A DNA stretch of 64,000 nt, taken from assembly GCA_964016885.1 (NCBI GenBank), contig OZ024752.1, positions 39,928,001-39,992,000 on the forward strand, written 5' to 3'. Below, piece after piece: positions 13,405 through 55,600 of this stretch (the first letter of the stretch is position 1; every line of letters starts with the position of its first letter). Origin of the DNA: Eledone cirrhosa (Eukaryota). The notes under the pieces were generated by a model. The model was not told the origin of the DNA, made no database searches, and saw nothing but the letters and a program-made list of their open reading frames with translations. The translations under genes and the position numbers were made by a program.

Positions 13405-13536
13405 ATTAAAATACTGGAGCGTGTTGGTGTTAGTGCTTCTTGTGGTTTTGATTGCCCTGATGAGTCCTTAATAGGACGAAACATTGTTGGCTAATAAAGA
13501 CTTTTGATGTATTGAAGGCTTCTTTGTTTTATTTTC

Positions 13537-45800: not shown

Positions 45801-48800
45801 TGGTGTCACAACAAAAAGCACCCAGTCTACACTGTAAAATGGTCCTGTTGGTGTCACAACAAAAAGCACCCAGTCTACACTGTAAAATGGTCCTGTTGGT
45901 GTCACAACAAAAAGCACCCAGTCTACACTGTAAAATAGTCCTGTTGGTGTCACAACAAAAAGCACCCAGTCCACACTGTAAAATGGTCCTGTTGGTGTCA
46001 CAACATAAAGCACCCAGTCTACACTGTAAAATGGTCCTGTTGGTGTCACAACAAAAAGCACCCAGTCCACACTGTAAAATGATCCTGTTGGTGTCACAAC
46101 AAAAAGCACCCAGTCTACACTGTAAAATGGTCCTGTTGGTGTCACAACAAAAAGCACCCAGTCTACACTGTAAAATAGTCCTGTTGGTGTCACAACAAAA
46201 AGCACCCAGCCCACACTGTAAAATAGTCCTGTTGGTGTCACAACAAAAAGCACCCAGTCTACATTGTAAAATGGTCATGTTGGTGTCACAACAAAAAGCA
46301 CCCAGTCTACACTGTAAAATAGTCCTGCTGGTGTCACAAAAAGCACCCAGTCTACACTGTAAAATGGTCCTGTTGGTGTCACAACAAAAAGCACCCAGTC
46401 TACACTGTAAAATGGTCCTGTTGGTGTCACAACAAAAAGCACCCAGTCTACACTGTAAAATGGTCCTGTTGGTGTCACAACAAAAAGCACCCAGTCTACA
46501 CTGTAAAATAGTCCTGTTGGTGTCACAACAAAAAGCATCCAGCCCACACTGTAAAATAGTCCTGTTGGTGTCACAACAAAAAGCACCCAGTCTACACTGT
46601 AAAATAGTCCTGTTGGTGTCACAACAAAAAGCATCCAGCCCACACTGTAAAGTGGTCGTGTAGGGGTCATGACAAAAAGCACTCACCCCACAATGTAAAG
46701 TGGTCATGTAGGTATCAATATAAAAAGCACCCAGCCCACACTGTAAAGTGGTCATGTAGGTATCATGATAAAAAGCACCCAGTACTCACTGTGAATGAGT
46801 TTGGTGTTAGGAAGGGCATCCAGCTGTAGAAACCAAGTCAAAATCAGTTCTGTACGAACAAGACATGGTCAGCTGACCTACCATTGCCCACAACAGGACA
46901 ACACATCTAACCTATACCAGCGTAGAAAAATGGACGTAAAACGATGATGATGATGATATAAATTGGAAGATTCATTTACATTAAAATCTCAACATTTAAT
47001 TCCTAAACATTATTGTTCTTGGTGTTAGTACATCATAAAGCCACATTCTATTTTCTATAATGTAGAAAATGATAGTGGTAAGGAACACTCAGGAGAGCTG
47101 GACAGCAAAAGGTCTTCAGAGAAGAACCACCCCAACCCTCAACCAAGTGTTTCGACCCTTAACTTCTTACACTCTAAGAGGGCCAGGCTGCATCCACATC
47201 ATGACCCCTGAATGCTCCTCTGTTGACATTTAGCCATTCAGAAATCAGAGACTTGTTGATTATTTAAACAATATGGAGATTTTGTTGACAGGATTTTACT
47301 GGAACTCCTCTCCATTGCCTCTGCTTTCAAACTTATATTTGACCCTTTAGCATTTACATTACTCTATATATACTATTGTATTTTTGTAGTAAAGGCTTTA
47401 TCTTACATCATATCTCACATAACATTTACATTACTCTATATATACTATTGTATTTTTGTAGTAAAGGCTTTATCTTACATCATATCTCACATAACATTTA
47501 CATTACTCTATATATACTATTGTATTTTTGTAGTAAAGGCTTTATCTTACATCATATCTCACAAAACATTTACATTACTCTATATATACTATTGTATTTT
47601 TGTAGTAAAGGCTTTATCTTACATCATATCTCACAAAACATTTACATTACTCTATATATACTATTGTATTTTTGTAGTAAAGGCTTTATCTTACATCATA
47701 TCTCACATGACATTTACATTACTCTATATATACTATCGTATTTTTGTAGTAAAGACTTTATCTTACATAATTATCTCACATAATATCAAATCTACAAATT
47801 TTGATATTATTTATTTTGAGAATAATACCTTAACATCAGTATAAGCGGCCAGTTACAGCTGGTTTGAACAGATAGAGGTGAGTGAATTCTGGCCAGATAT
47901 GGCCGGTTTAAATACTAAAGGGTTAAACACTTTCTTGAATTGGAAAATAACATTGGTAGTCATAAAACAATGTAAAATGGACAGTAAAATTTAGTTTAGA
48001 TGAAGGTAATAAAAAGGTTTTTGTTACCTGGTATCTATGATTATTATCTTTTTATTCTTCATCCTAATATTTAGGGACTTAAAAATCCTTTCTATTTTGC
48101 TTTGTCTTAGCCTTCTTAAACTTTTAGCATTTAAACCAGCCATATCTGGTCAGAACTCTCTCACGCCTTTCAATTCAAACTGGCCATAACCAGCCTCTCA
48201 TACCGATGTATTGTTCTCAATATAAATAATATCAAAATCTCTTAGATTTGATATTATGTGAGATAATTATGTGAGATAAAACCTTTACCATGAAAATACA
48301 ATAGTAAATATAAAGTAATGTAAATGCTATGTGAGATAAAACCTTTACCATGAAAATACAATAGTAAATATAGAGTAATGTAAATGCTATGTGAGATAAA
48401 ACCTTTACCATGAAAATACAATAGTAAATATAAAGTAATGTAAATGCTATGTGAGATAAAACCTTTACCATGAAAATACAATAGTAAATATAGAGTAATG
48501 AAATGCTAAAGGGTTAAACCATATCACTTTCTACATTATATGCTATACACAATGCTTCTAGCAAACTATAACATTCTATTTTCTATTTCTTTATATATAT
48601 TTTTTTTTAGATCAATGTTGCAGCATCTGATTCAGGTACGATCAGGCGCACGGCCTCAGCAAGAGTAACTGTCAATATTAAACACAACAATAAACCATAC
48701 TTTGATAGAAGTAGTTATCAAGTATCCGTAGATGAGTCTATAGCAGTCAATAGCACTGTGTACCAGGTTTTAGCTAAAGATCCAACACAAGCTTCGGTGA

Positions 48801-50949: not shown

Positions 50950-50984
<35 letters not shown>

Positions 50985-51390
50985 TTTCTGAATTTGTTTA
51001 GCAAGATTCTTTATCTGAAATCGTGTGTTGAAACCGATATTGTTATACTTTGGGAGGGTCATGTTGCCAATAAGAAACACACGCACCAGTTGCTTTCACT
51101 TCAATTTAATTTATTATATATTTATAAATTTACAAATTTATAAATTTCTGGTTGGTTGGTTGGTTCCACAACCAGATAGTTGTTTATATATATATAGTCA
51201 TAGTTCTTTCGTCACACACTCTGTGACCTCTTCAGTGACTGGGGATTTCTTTCTTCGTTTCTGTGCCTTTCCTTTCTTCTATCCTACGCCATTTTAAATT
51301 TGTAAATTTATAAATATATAATAAATTAAATTGAAGTGAAAGCAACTGGTGCGTGTGTTTCTTATTGGCAACATGACCCTCCCAAAGTAT

Positions 51391-51450
<60 letters not shown>

Positions 51451-52485
51451 AGGAAGTGTAATGTGAAGTTACTGTGGGTTCACCCAGGTGAGTACTTGAG
51501 TCAGGCCAGAACGATATAGATCAAACCTTGAGCTGATCAATAACAAAACGTGTGTCACCAATCAATAAATGTTATGAAGGATTAACAAATCGTCCTTGTA
51601 TTATATATATATATTTGGAAACTCTGCCTCATAGAATCGAGACATATCCGAGGATCTTGCGATCTCAGAGTCAGGTTCGATCATTGCATCGATCGTACCT
51701 CGAGCTGGTCGCCAGAGAAACGATTGTAATATGTCTAATAAATCTTATTCGTCGCACCACTGATTCTCCATTTCTTATGTGATATATATAGGAAAAAGTA
51801 TGACCCCGACGGCAGAGCTCAAGCCGTTTCGACGGCTATTTCTGGACTATTCCAGAAATAGCCGTCGAAACGGCTTGAGCTCTGCCGTCGGGGTCATACT
51901 TTTTTCTATTTCCCACTCTACTACTCTAAGTATTGAGTACTCTGGTGCGTTATGGTCCATCTGGTTCTTTACCACAATTCCTTTGTTATATATATAAATC
52001 CAGGGAGTGTAACTTGGAGTTCACCCGGGTGAGCACTCGATGTTTAGGTTCACTTCAGTGTCGAGGTGTTGATCTAAACAGAGTGTATTATATATATATA
52101 TATATATATATAAGAATAAACGTGCTGCGTGGTTGCAAAAGGGTTACATATGAATAAAGTTAATCCTTCATCAGTGATCTTCCAACCATCATTGGTATTT
52201 CATCGCTTTAAAGACCATATACCTCCGGTTGGTGCGAGCAACAGCTAAAAAAAGTCGTTGGGACACGACGATTTCACCGAACTTATATTTATGGAAATTT
52301 GGGACTTGACTCCTTCCTCCTCACTTTTCGTTGCTTCACCATCTTTGTTTGTTTACACTCTCGTGTCCCCTTTATTTACGTGTCCCAACGACTTTTTTTA
52401 GCCGTTGCTCGCACCAACCGGAGGTATATGGTCTTTAAAGCGATGAAATACCAATGATGGTTGGAAGATCACTGATGAAGGACTA

Positions 52486-52531
<46 letters not shown>

Positions 52532-52647
52532 AACCAGTAAGACCCCGACAGCTGAGCTCAAGCCGTTTCGACGGCTAATTCTGGATTAGCCGTCCAGAAT
52601 TAGCCGTCGAAACGGCTTGAGCTCAGCTGTCGGGGTCTTACTGGTTC

Positions 52648-52693
<46 letters not shown>

Positions 52694-55600
52694 AGGCACA
52701 TGGCTTAGAGGTTAGAGCATTGGCCTTGCAATCGAAAGGTTGTGAGTTCAATTCTCAGACCTGGTGATGTTTTGTTTCCTTGAGCAAGGCACTTTATTTC
52801 ACATTGCTCCAGTTTACTCAGCTGTAGAAATGAGATGATAGGGACTGGGGTCCATATCATTCCACTGCAAAGTGGTCGTGGAGGTGCACCCAGCACTCAC
52901 TGTAAATGAGGTTGGTGTTAGGAAGGGCATCCAGCTGTAGAAATCAAGCCAGAATCAGTTCCCGTCCCACCCTTGCAAGCAGGGAAAAGCGGACGTAAAA
53001 TGAAATGATGAATGATATATATATATATATATAATATATATATATACAAATTCCGACCTCACACACTTACACCTCTCCAAGACAATGTCACTGGACCGAG
53101 ACCTTTGGCGGTACTCAGTAATAGAGAAGACCCGCCTTACCTAAATACAAAGTAAAACCTACTACAGTCAGTAGGCATCTCTAACAAAACACACCCCCGT
53201 CCCACCACCCCCACCCCATCCACACCGCCCCTTTCAATGTAAAGTTATGTTGGTGTCACAACATCCAGGCCGAAACAAATGAGATTGTGTAGGTGTCACG
53301 ACAAAAAAACACACAGTCCACGCTGTAATGTGGCCGTGTAGGCAACACGGTAAAAACCTCCCAGCCCCACACTGTAAATGTGGTTGGTGTTAAGAAGGGC
53401 ATCCAACTGTAGAAAACCCGCCAGACAGTCCACGCTGTAATGTGGCCATGTAGGCAACACGGTAAAAACCTCCCAGCCCCACACTGTAAATGTGGTTGGT
53501 GTTAGGAAGGGCATCCAGCTGTAGAAAACCCGCCAGACAGTCCACGCTGTAATGTGGCCATGTAGGCAACACGGTAAAAACCTCCCAGCCCCACACTGTA
53601 AATGTGGTTGGTGTTAGGAAAGGCATCCAGCTGTAGAAAACCCGCCAGACAGTCCACGCTGTAATGTGGCCATGTAGGCAACACGGTAAAAACCTCCCAG
53701 CCCCACACTGTAAATGTGGTTGGTGTTAGGAAGGGCATCCAACTGTAGAAAACCTGCCAGACAGTCCACGCTGTAATGTGGCCATGTAGGCAACACGGTA
53801 AAAACCTCCCAGCCCCACACTGTAAATGTGGTTGGTGTTAGGAAGGGCATCCAGCTGTAGAAAACCCACCAGACAGTCCTATGCGAGCAAGACAACCACT
53901 CTTGCCTCAAGTGGGAAAACTCCCGTCCAAACCCATGCTAACGTGGAACACGGACGTTAAACGATGATGATGTTGATGATGATGATGACATAGTGAGGGA
54001 TGTAGGAGGAAATAAATGCAATATCCAGTTCTATAAATATGTTTGTACAAATATATAATTATCAATTTCTTTTCACAGGGACAGTTGCTGTATGAATTAA
54101 AAAATAGCGTGAAGTTGTTTTACGTGACTCTTAATGGAGAGATAAAGGTCAAAATATTCCTTAAGAATGTCACTGTAACTACTGTTAATGTAAGTTAATT
54201 TTACTTGTTATACTTTTATACTGAAAAGGAACCCTTCCAACCACCCACTCTTCAAGCAACTGTTTCAGAAGTTAAAAGTTGAAACACTTCCTTAATGATG
54301 GGGGCAGGGTGATTCTAGGGGAAAAAAAGATTTGTCCATGTAAGCAATATATTCATGAAAAATAATTTTGATTTAGTTTAGAGTTTGCAAAACCCAAATA
54401 GGTTATTTAATATTCAACAAGTAAGATTTCTTTTTAAAATAGATTTTTAAAACATATTCAGCTACAGCTAATAAGTATAATTTATATTCAACTAGCCGAA
54501 TTACCCGCGCTTTGCTGCGTTTCACACATATTTTTTTGTAAGAAAATGATGATTGATTTTAAATCAGTGATATAATTTATGGAGAAAAAATAAAGGGAAA
54601 ATGTTAAAAAAGTAGAGTCATTAACTAATAATTTTTGTCATAATTCTAGTGATGTTTTGCCATAGATAAAATGTCTAAATTAGCCAAATTTTACTATAAA
54701 AGAGAGGTGTTTTTTTTTTTGTTGATTTACATTTAATTAATAGAAAAAACCCATGATAATAGAGGTTCAAATACTCAAGTTATGGGCTTCCAAAATTTTC
54801 ACTATAGGGGGTTTAACCCCCATTAGGGTGTCTTAACATTATTGAAATTTGCTGAAATTTTGTGAATAGACATCATATTTCGTCATTTACCTATGGTTTA
54901 AATTTCATATAAATCAAAGGGAAAAAGTTTCACCAGGGGTTTGTGCCCCCAGGGAACCCTTTGATTAAAATGAAATATACTTATCCAAGTACCCTGGGCA
55001 ATGTAGTTTCAGAATATATATGGTTATGAGGGTCTATCTCCAAAACCATAGGAGGAGTTTGTGAACAAACAAACAAACAGACAGACAGGAACTACAGCTT
55101 TATATATATAGATATAGACAAGCTTTCTTCCATTGTCTAGTAGTCCTTGCTCTTCCCCACTTTTCCTTTCATTTATACTTTCTTTTTCTGTATGTTTAAC
55201 CAATTTTGAAGCCAATAGAATTTTTATTAGTTATATATTAAATAACCTTACAAATGGGAGTGAAAATATACAAAGCATATAAATAAATTTACAGTAGAAT
55301 AACATAACAATTATGTTTTAAATATATACATAAATAACATTACAAATGCTTAAATAACATTATAAATTGCTCACGATTCTTTCAGAAAGATATATTCCTT
55401 CGGGAAATCTTCTTAGAATTATCTCATCACAGACAACCTTCCAATTGAACTAAAGAAACATATGCATTCCAGATGTTTGTATATCTGATATGACAGTAAA
55501 TTCGATGTATTTTTGAAGTATTTTGAAGTATGTCAATGAAGTTTGTTGGTTGTCTTCCATAGTTAATCTGTTCATGTATAGACTGCCATACCATATTTAC

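What the first reader, a model, noticed from the sequence alone, without database searches (positions are those of the whole stretch)
51793..52651. Two independent perfect palindromes centred on hammerhead stem II: footprint of snap-back priming
Seen: both palindromes (54- and 59-bp arms) consist of stem II strand-GAA-ACGGC(TTGAGCTC.)GC(C/T)GT-C-GGGGTC-tail, a complete hammerhead 3' half with GUC site, mirrored about stem II, with CTGANGA missing. The two differ in sequence, yet each is internally perfect, so each was mirrored separately. Inference: cDNA copied from the 3' tail folds back on the ribozyme's own stem II hairpin and self-primes, producing hairpin insertions that resemble MITEs but are retro-derived.
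Basis: partly seen in the sequence, partly recalled or inferred. Interest (0 to 1): 0.7.

Follow-up and report, generated by a model that had tools for sequence, protein, structure and literature searches.

The report
Penelope hairpins mark the RNA's start
These two DNA hairpins are the shortest copies of an abundant Penelope-type jumping gene; they likely form when both ends of a DNA cut copy the first 60-140 bases of the element's RNA, run off its probably capped start and are joined head to head, which would explain how such elements make their mirror-image insertions.

Summary
The two palindromes are real (perfect arms of 54 and 59 bp). They are minimal insertions of a Hydra-clade Penelope-like retrotransposon (3,543-bp unit, 719-aa RT/endonuclease ORF) with about 61,000 arms and at least 11,823 such short palindromes genome-wide. 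One-primer snap-back fails: 49 of 50 palindromes carry an 80-nt tail on exactly one arm, either arm reaches further in, and 26 of 50 loops are 0-2 nt. Arms stop at one A (+1). There a non-parental C:G pair appears in 45 of 50 symmetric joints (control one base away: 5 of 50), on either arm. In two unrelated families arms also stop about 30 nt behind a TATA box. Best reading: both target ends prime at RNA +61 and +141, both cDNAs run off the capped 5' end and are joined. No RNA data were available. The scan already noted two-ended priming elsewhere in this genome; the notes shown did not mention a start-site or cap signature, nor did the papers read.

The parts
51788..51848 (-). Palindrome 1, tail-less arm: element unit positions +61 to +1 (outer end at the first inferred RT start site, TTCCTA, next to TA repeat)
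   Evidence: blastn to the 3,543-bp unit, 90%
51847..51850 (.). Centre of palindrome 1 (loop CTAT): left arm reaches +1, then 2-3 joint bases, right arm starts at +3
51851..51909 (+). Palindrome 1, right arm: unit +3 to +61 (3' strand of hammerhead stem II, GAAA at 51867-51870, stem III with palindromic loop, GUC site ending 51889, stem I 3' strand)
   Evidence: sequence; parent anatomy; mapping
51910..51989 (+). 80-nt Penelope 'tail' (unit +62 to +141), present on this arm only; ends at the second inferred RT start site next to TA repeat; in full copies it runs on into the ORF leader
52527..52585 (-). Palindrome 2, left arm: unit +61 to +3, 100% identical to the young tandem-array unit
52586..52592. 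Centre of palindrome 2 (TTAGCCG): a short copy of the neighbouring arm sequence, i.e. a templated insertion from a two-step join; the same kind of centre recurs at other loci (L078, rows)
52592..52652 (+). Palindrome 2, right arm: unit +2 to +62, no tail (unusual: 0 of 50 sampled palindromes lack both tails)

Best explanation
The palindromes are minimal insertions of a Hydra-clade Penelope-like retrotransposon into (TA)n, likely made when both ends of the cut target prime reverse transcription at two fixed RNA sites (+61 and +141), both cDNAs run off the RNA's probably capped 5' end (+1), and their 3' ends are joined head to head. Shown: parent element, fixed outer ends, one-sided tail, sharp inner edge at +1, extra C:G pair there, direct jumps from +1 back into the RNA. 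Inferred: that +1 is the transcription start (TATA-like box at -29/-31, YYANWYY-type context), that the extra base is a copy of the cap, and that the join is cDNA to cDNA by 0-2 nt of pairing. Inferred consequence: +1 lies inside the hammerhead's stem II, so the RNA's 5' end holds only half a ribozyme and stays uncut, while the complete ribozyme at the 3' end would cut off the downstream start sites; this would explain why about 90% of arms are these short run-off copies.
For: Parent: L050 and a 5-copy tandem array (unit 3,543 bp, ORF at +232, 719 aa). Two ends: 49 of 50 palindromes have the tail on one arm only (48 by script, L107 corrected by eye; L094 has two tails); 9 of 10 inverted pairs of an unrelated family likewise (by eye); unnamed-run contigs end at +61 and +141 beside TA. 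A purified Penelope protein nicks and extends both strands and starts at two RNA sites that bound the tail (PMC11167929). Inner edge: of 179 arms (set includes the 50 short palindromes), 57 end at +1/+2, 18 at 0 to -5, 11 read through; genome-wide only 4,615 of 60,943 keep the core; in 600 kb taken blind, 2 of 20; contig depth drops about 14-fold at +1. Extra base: GGACT-N-AGTCC has non-parental C/G in 45 of 50 listed joints, GGAC-N-GTCC in 5 of 50 (Fisher p=9e-17); read as an extra C on the cDNA it sits on the tail arm in 22, on the tail-less arm in 16, unclear in 3 of 41 centres from 40 of the 45 loci; some joints have it on both arms (L184/185, L194, L196). Loops of 0-2 nt in 26 of 50. A second joint type uses the same site: in 5 loci the cDNA ends at +1/+2 and resumes inside the leader or ORF (L369-L373). 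Two unrelated families: TATAAAA starts 30 nt before the A where arms end (3 of 3 parents; 19 of 25 arms end at -1..+9) and TATAAATA at -29, -30, -32 (3 of 3 parents; no truncated arm ends upstream of +1). Untemplated G at the 5' end of L1/SVA copies is read as cap copying (PMC4859970).
Against: No RNA evidence of any kind was obtained. A 1-nt C:G centre cannot show which cDNA gained the base; in asymmetric joints my hand count of the 100 rows gave about 17 unexplained C, 6-10 G and 1-4 T, so some additions are not cap-like. A minor subfamily has a parental C at -1 (4 of 46 parents; about 5 of the 41 centres share its diagnostic). The TATA-like box of this family is imperfect (TATTTAAA, TATTTATT, TATTCATA). 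No clear extra G was seen in the small samples of the two other families, and their +1 was chosen after seeing where arms end. The five direct jumps show G before the restart in only 1-2. A third family (30,001 hits) has widely spread centres. Loops of 3-7 nt (21 of 50) could equally come from true fold-back. Both arms always share a subfamily (46 of 46), which snap-back also predicts. Palindrome 2 has no tail on either arm.
Confidence: 0.75

Rival explanations
1. Snap-back self-priming (first reader; also proposed for Penelope palindromes in PMC3846280): one cDNA folds back and copies itself. A hybrid form is possible: two primers, but the centre is closed by fold-back of one cDNA.
For: Arms are near-identical and of one subfamily; 21 of 50 loops are 3-7 nt, where the terminal C or T could pair 4-6 nt back; templated insertions such as TTAGCCG show local re-priming.
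Against: Pure form: the tail-less arm reaches further in than the tail arm in 20 of 49 and carries the extra C in 16 of 38, yet it cannot template a tail; 26 of 50 loops are 0-2 nt; no centre reproduces the real stem II apex. An antisense template would not explain a cap-like base at a sense TATA+30 site.
Confidence: 0.1
2. Two-ended priming, but the inner edge is not a transcription start: RT stalls at ribozyme structure or bound protein, or the RNA is cut there, and the extra base is ordinary non-templated addition.
For: The edge lies in the 3' strand of the long stem II; G and T additions also occur; R2-type RTs add non-templated bases and jump with 1-2 nt overhangs (PMC8857657, passages).
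Against: A helix stall should fall where RT enters stem II (+18), not 17 nt later; the parent fold is not unusually stable (z -0.25 to -1.2); in two other families the edge lies upstream of the ribozyme core and 29-32 nt behind a canonical TATA box; addition is specific to +1. A splice-acceptor reading (TTTAG|TCC) is unlikely because no common sequence follows the C in 30 of 30 loci.
Confidence: 0.12
3. A MITE or other DNA hairpin element, copied as a fixed palindrome or rearranged after insertion.
For: Short, palindromic, high copy, in TA repeats.
Against: 39 distinct centres in 50; unequal ends; arms are the pLTR/leader of an RT-coding element and grade into full copies; the extra base falls on either arm in both subfamilies.
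Confidence: 0.02

Closest known systems
Hydra clade of C-terminal EN+ Penelope-like elements (Craig et al. 2021, PMC8557442; sections 10 and 11, passages and supplement searches seen; e.g. Hydra-1_Obim)
   Same: Single RT + C-terminal endonuclease ORF with the clade motifs, (TA)n targets, hammerhead in the pLTR, partial tandems, inverted 5'-truncated copy, one-sided tail; ORF visibly alike to Hydra-1_Obim from the N-terminus (compared by eye text).
   Different: Unit 3.5 kb (paper: generally under 3 kb); tail 80 nt (paper: 30-40); U3-A8 core and long stem II rather than a canonical motif; about 90% of arms stop at one site, which the parts read do not describe.
Poseidon from Anolis in vitro (Frangieh et al. 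2024, PMC11167929; parts 1-2 of 4 read)
   Same: Both strands nicked and extended, two internal RT start sites bounding the tail, AT-rich targets, uncut ribozyme RNA as template, predicted dimer.
   Different: Different clade; the paper does not treat the inner joint of inverted copies, the RNA 5' end or cap copying.
Penelope palindromic junctions in Adineta vaga (Arkhipova et al. 2013, PMC3846280; parts 1-4 of 5 read)
   Same: Head-to-head inverted pLTRs, palindromes at the junction, tail on one arm, TATA and Inr-like motifs noted in the pLTR.
   Different: That paper proposes self-priming on an antisense template and calls for tests; the data here favour two primers on a sense RNA.
L1 twin priming and untemplated 5' G (review PMC4859970, passages)
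   Same: Two target ends prime on one RNA; extra G marks a capped 5' end.
   Different: In L1 the second primer anneals at random internal sites and gives a 5' inversion without duplicated arms; here both starts are fixed and the arms overlap.
Metazoan non-LTR retrozymes (bioRxiv 10.64898/2026.07.22.740005, part 1 of 5 read)
   Same: Small hammerhead-related Penelope derivatives.
   Different: These palindromes have no complete ribozyme, no tandem monomers and no sign of spreading as units.

Membership tests
Hydra-clade Penelope-like element (parent) | Single ORF with RT and C-terminal GIY-YIG-type endonuclease | tested here: met
   719-aa ORF with FDI and YRDD, C-terminal VIYQ..YIG region (motif roles recalled); 2,054 homologues, best E 7e-232, one with PF01541. 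Pfam itself gave 0 hits and PDB nothing significant.
Hydra-clade Penelope-like element (parent) | RWK motif, DKG changed to DKT | tested here: met
   RLRWRTFF (RWR) and SDKTG; definitions.
Hydra-clade Penelope-like element (parent) | CxCX5C linker; CxxC and CxH beside the conserved E and N; no CCHH | tested here: met
   CNCPDRSIC, CNLCSEE, NKKDELVTACKH; absence of CCHH judged by eye.
Hydra-clade Penelope-like element (parent) | (TA)n insertion, pLTR tandems, inverted copy, one-sided tail | tested here: met
Hydra-clade Penelope-like element (parent) | Placement in the Hydra clade on an RT tree | not tested
   Reference proteins were only seen as cut text in a supplement.
Type I hammerhead ribozyme (parent motif) | Core with a 3-8 pair, GAAA, NUH site, three stems | tested here: met
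   29 of 30 loci parsed: U3-A8 in 24, C3-A8 mismatch in 5; N7 varies G/A/U; G10.1-C11.1 kept; 5-bp stems I and III; GUC in 28 of 29. U3-A8 is a natural active variant (PMC3088659 section 8). Rfam gave no hammerhead hit.
Type I hammerhead ribozyme (parent motif) | Self-cleavage | not testable with these tools
   No RNA run was listed.
Type I hammerhead ribozyme (the two palindromes) | Complete core | tested here: not met
   Arms cover unit +1 to +61 only; the 5' core lies about 40 nt upstream of +1.
MITE | Fixed internal structure shared by descent, equal termini | tested here: not met
   39 distinct centres in 50; unequal ends in 49 of 50.
MITE | Target-site duplication of a DNA transposon type | tested here: inconclusive
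   Flanks are (TA)n, so a duplication cannot be read.
Non-LTR retrozyme | Tandem monomers each with a complete hammerhead | tested here: not met

The most novel reading that the evidence does not exclude
The Penelope pLTR works like a retroviral LTR: the transcription start inside the ribozyme and the ribozyme cut define a 41-nt terminal repeat on the RNA; RT starts near the 5' end, makes a 'strong-stop'-like cDNA up to the cap, and must jump to the RNA's cut 3' end to make a full copy. The tens of thousands of short palindromes are strong-stop DNAs integrated from both target ends when the jump failed, and their centres map Penelope start sites without RNA data.
Probability: 0.25. Interest if true: 0.85.

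Novelty: new variant of a known kind. Interest (0 to 1): 0.6.

Why it matters
How Penelope-like elements, the closest mobile relatives of telomerase, make their inverted and tandem insertions is stated as open in PMC8557442 and PMC3846280, and the in vitro study PMC11167929 leaves the steps after initiation unvalidated. This family gives over ten thousand independent joints that separate the models: they count against self-priming, favour two primers on a sense RNA, and point to the capped 5' end as the stop. The prediction is cheap to test. It also means that many MITE-like hairpins in such genomes are dead retro-copies and that their centres may mark promoters.

Tried and rejected
RNA evidence: no RNA holder listed; only contigs of two unnamed runs could be laid, which may come from the assembled individual and cannot show starts. 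Rfam: no hammerhead match for the palindromes or the parent; miRNA matches are hairpin artefacts below threshold. Pfam and PDB: nothing for the ORF. Folding of parents: hammerhead-like minimum structures in 2 of 4, z-scores not significant. Base before +1 in joints that are not mirrored: uninformative because the loci were chosen by patterns that fix that base. Chimeric arms from two RNAs: the one candidate (L239) differs only by point changes; none in 46 scorable palindromes. Splice acceptor at the centre: rejected. The 13 CTGANGA-N-GACGGCTA hits belong to other sequences. Generality: the family at 51037-51398 shows no tight centre. Literature searches found no paper linking Penelope inverted joints to the start site or cap; the library lacks most subscription papers, the D. 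virilis promoter papers were not read, and supplements of the bioRxiv preprint were closed, so this is not proof of absence.

Full report
Observation. Both lie in TA repeats. The window is C12 of a 3.0-Gb animal genome, in which the 16-mer TAGCCGTCGAAACGGC occurs 60,943 times, control 0. 11,823 places have two such 16-mers head to head within 30 nt, i.e. 39% of all matches. The first 50 have 39 different centres of 2-29 nt.

Parent. The real parent reads TACCCC-(T/C)TGA(G/A)AA-GCTCGGCTA, a 46-48-nt stem II region, TAGCCGTC-GAAA-CGGC, palindromic loop, GCCGT-C-GGGGT. That is a type I hammerhead with a U3-A8 core in 24 of 29 parsed loci; this covariation is natural and active (PMC3088659 section 8). 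4,615 arms keep this core. It lies at the end of a Penelope-like element: L050 has an inverted truncated copy, a partial tandem and a 719-aa ORF, and a five-copy array gives a 3,543-bp unit. The ORF has the Hydra-clade motifs listed in PMC8557442 section 11 and 2,054 homologues. Taking the A of TTAGTCC as +1, palindrome 1 is unit 61-1 inverted plus 3-141, and palindrome 2 is 61-3 inverted plus 2-62. The apparent 'stem II' pairing at the centre is thus only the mirror of the 3' strand.

Outer ends. 49 of 50 short palindromes end at +61 on one arm and at +141 (80-nt tail) on the other; one has two tails, none lacks both (L107 corrected by eye). An unrelated family shows the same in 9 of 10 inverted pairs (by eye). 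Contigs of two unnamed runs have loose TA ends at the same two places. In vitro, a Penelope protein extends both target strands and starts at two RNA sites that bound the tail (PMC11167929). One-primer snap-back needs the tail arm to be the first strand and to own a loop of 3 nt or more. Observed: tail arm longer 16, shorter 20, equal 13 of 49 (includes palindrome 1); loops of 0-2 nt in 26 of 50. So two priming events are needed. Both arms come from the same subfamily in 46 of 46 scorable cases, which fits one RNA or one source locus and does not separate the models.

Inner ends. Arms pile up at +1/+2 and few pass it: 57 of 179 arms end there, 18 at 0 to -5, 11 read through (the set includes the 50 short palindromes). 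In 600 kb taken without selection, 2 of 20 arms read through; genome-wide 4,615 of 60,943 keep the core and 10,274 matches (shorter anchor) reach -4. Where both arms reach +1 with one base between them, that base is a non-parental C:G in 45 of the 50 joints listed (490 in all); one base further in, it is non-parental in 5 of 50 (239 in all) (p=9e-17). 6,558 arms read GGACTC, and no common sequence follows, so it is not an exon. Read as a C on the cDNA, it is on the tail arm in 22 and the tail-less arm in 16 of 41 centres (40 of the 45 loci fetched). Limits: a single C:G pair does not show which cDNA gained it; my hand count of asymmetric joints gives about 17 C, 6-10 G, 1-4 T; and a minor subfamily has a parental C at -1 (4 of 46 parents, about 5 of 41 centres). 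Untemplated G in the sense strand is the accepted mark of cap copying in L1 and SVA (PMC4859970).

Why +1 is likely the start site. A TATA-like box begins at -29 or -31 and the context fits the initiator pattern YYANWYY (recalled). Among 30 loci where the tail runs on into the leader, 5 begin at -4 to +6, and five show a cDNA ending at +1/+2 and resuming inside the leader or ORF: a second joint type at the same site, as expected when RT runs off a template end and jumps (R2-type jumping: PMC8857657, passages). Two unrelated families found in the flanks give an independent check: their arms stop 30 nt behind TATAAAA (3 of 3 parents; 19 of 25 arms at -1..+9) and 29-32 nt behind TATAAATA (3 of 3 parents), upstream of their ribozyme cores, not in stem II. 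Against: no clear extra G in those small samples, their +1 was picked after seeing the ends, and a further family has spread-out centres. Penelope start sites are known to lie in the pLTR (PMC8557442 section 10).

Mechanism. Inferred: the element RNA starts at +1. The protein, probably a dimer, nicks both strands of (TA)n and primes at +61 and +141. Both cDNAs run to the cap, often gain a C, and are joined through 0-2 paired bases, sometimes in two steps, which gives centres like TTAGCCG in palindrome 2. Because +1 is inside stem II, the RNA's 5' end has only half a ribozyme and stays uncut; the whole ribozyme at the 3' end would cut at +41 of the next copy and remove the downstream start sites, so short copies dominate. 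Long arms tend to come in pairs (9 of the 11 core-bearing arms in the first 13.8 Mb of C1), as expected if read-through RNAs from tandem arrays give long copies on both sides. A jump from the cap end to the cut 3' end over the shared 41 nt would give the same sequence and could not be told apart here. Fold-back may still close some centres with loops of 3-7 nt. Palindrome 2 lacks a tail: either both primers used +61 or the tail was lost between TA-like ends.

Known and new. The layout (inverted truncated copy, one-sided tail) is known (PMC8557442, PMC3846280). Self-priming was the published guess for junction palindromes (PMC3846280). Earlier notes of this scan already argue for two-ended priming in this genome; I formed that reading before seeing them and tested it here. 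A start-site or cap signature at the centre was not in the notes shown or in the papers found. Verdict: ordinary, inactive copies of a known class of element, whose joints carry an unreported and testable mechanistic signal. No RNA data support it yet. Interest 0.6.

Noticed in passing
window 52110-52492: Inverted insertion of a second family between the two palindromes, with a ~45-nt tail on one arm only; 4,724 genome hits, often head-to-tail at 630-646 bp spacing, i.e. a non-coding ribozyme-like unit.
   Followed up: partly
window 50983-51398: Inverted insertion of a third family (30,001 hits) with a ~55-nt one-sided tail; centres widely spread, no hotspot.
   Followed up: partly
L058, L200, L202, L283, L282, L336 (family with GCAGAAGAACTGCGAAACCGG): Another family with a U3-A8 hammerhead core (TTGAAAA) and arms ending 30 nt behind TATAAAA.
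   Followed up: partly
L016, L057, L113, L118, L203 (family with GAATGAAACAGTTCTAGTCC): Family with canonical core whose palindrome centres lie about 30 nt behind TATAAATA; tail shares ATTGAGTAC with the family studied.
   Followed up: partly
G000:C1:91,472,000-91,491,800 (L374, L375): Five head-to-tail units at 99.6-100% identity with an open 719-aa ORF, preceded by about 47 tandem copies of a 55-nt ORF fragment at the truncation point, suggesting repeated RT slippage or later expansion.
   Followed up: no
window 13451-13495; 50851; 49573 (-); 12471: Further hammerhead-like motifs; the first matches Rfam Hammerhead_1 at E 0.005, below the gathering score.
   Followed up: no
window 53310-53880: Five 112-bp tandem copies, 97-98% alike, of part of a common interspersed repeat.
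   Followed up: no
window 47348-48500: Two oppositely oriented tandem arrays (72-bp and 60-bp periods) sharing a motif.
   Followed up: no
L053, L163, L352: Subfamily with core TTGATAA and C at -1; shows N7 varying while U3-A8 is kept.
   Followed up: yes
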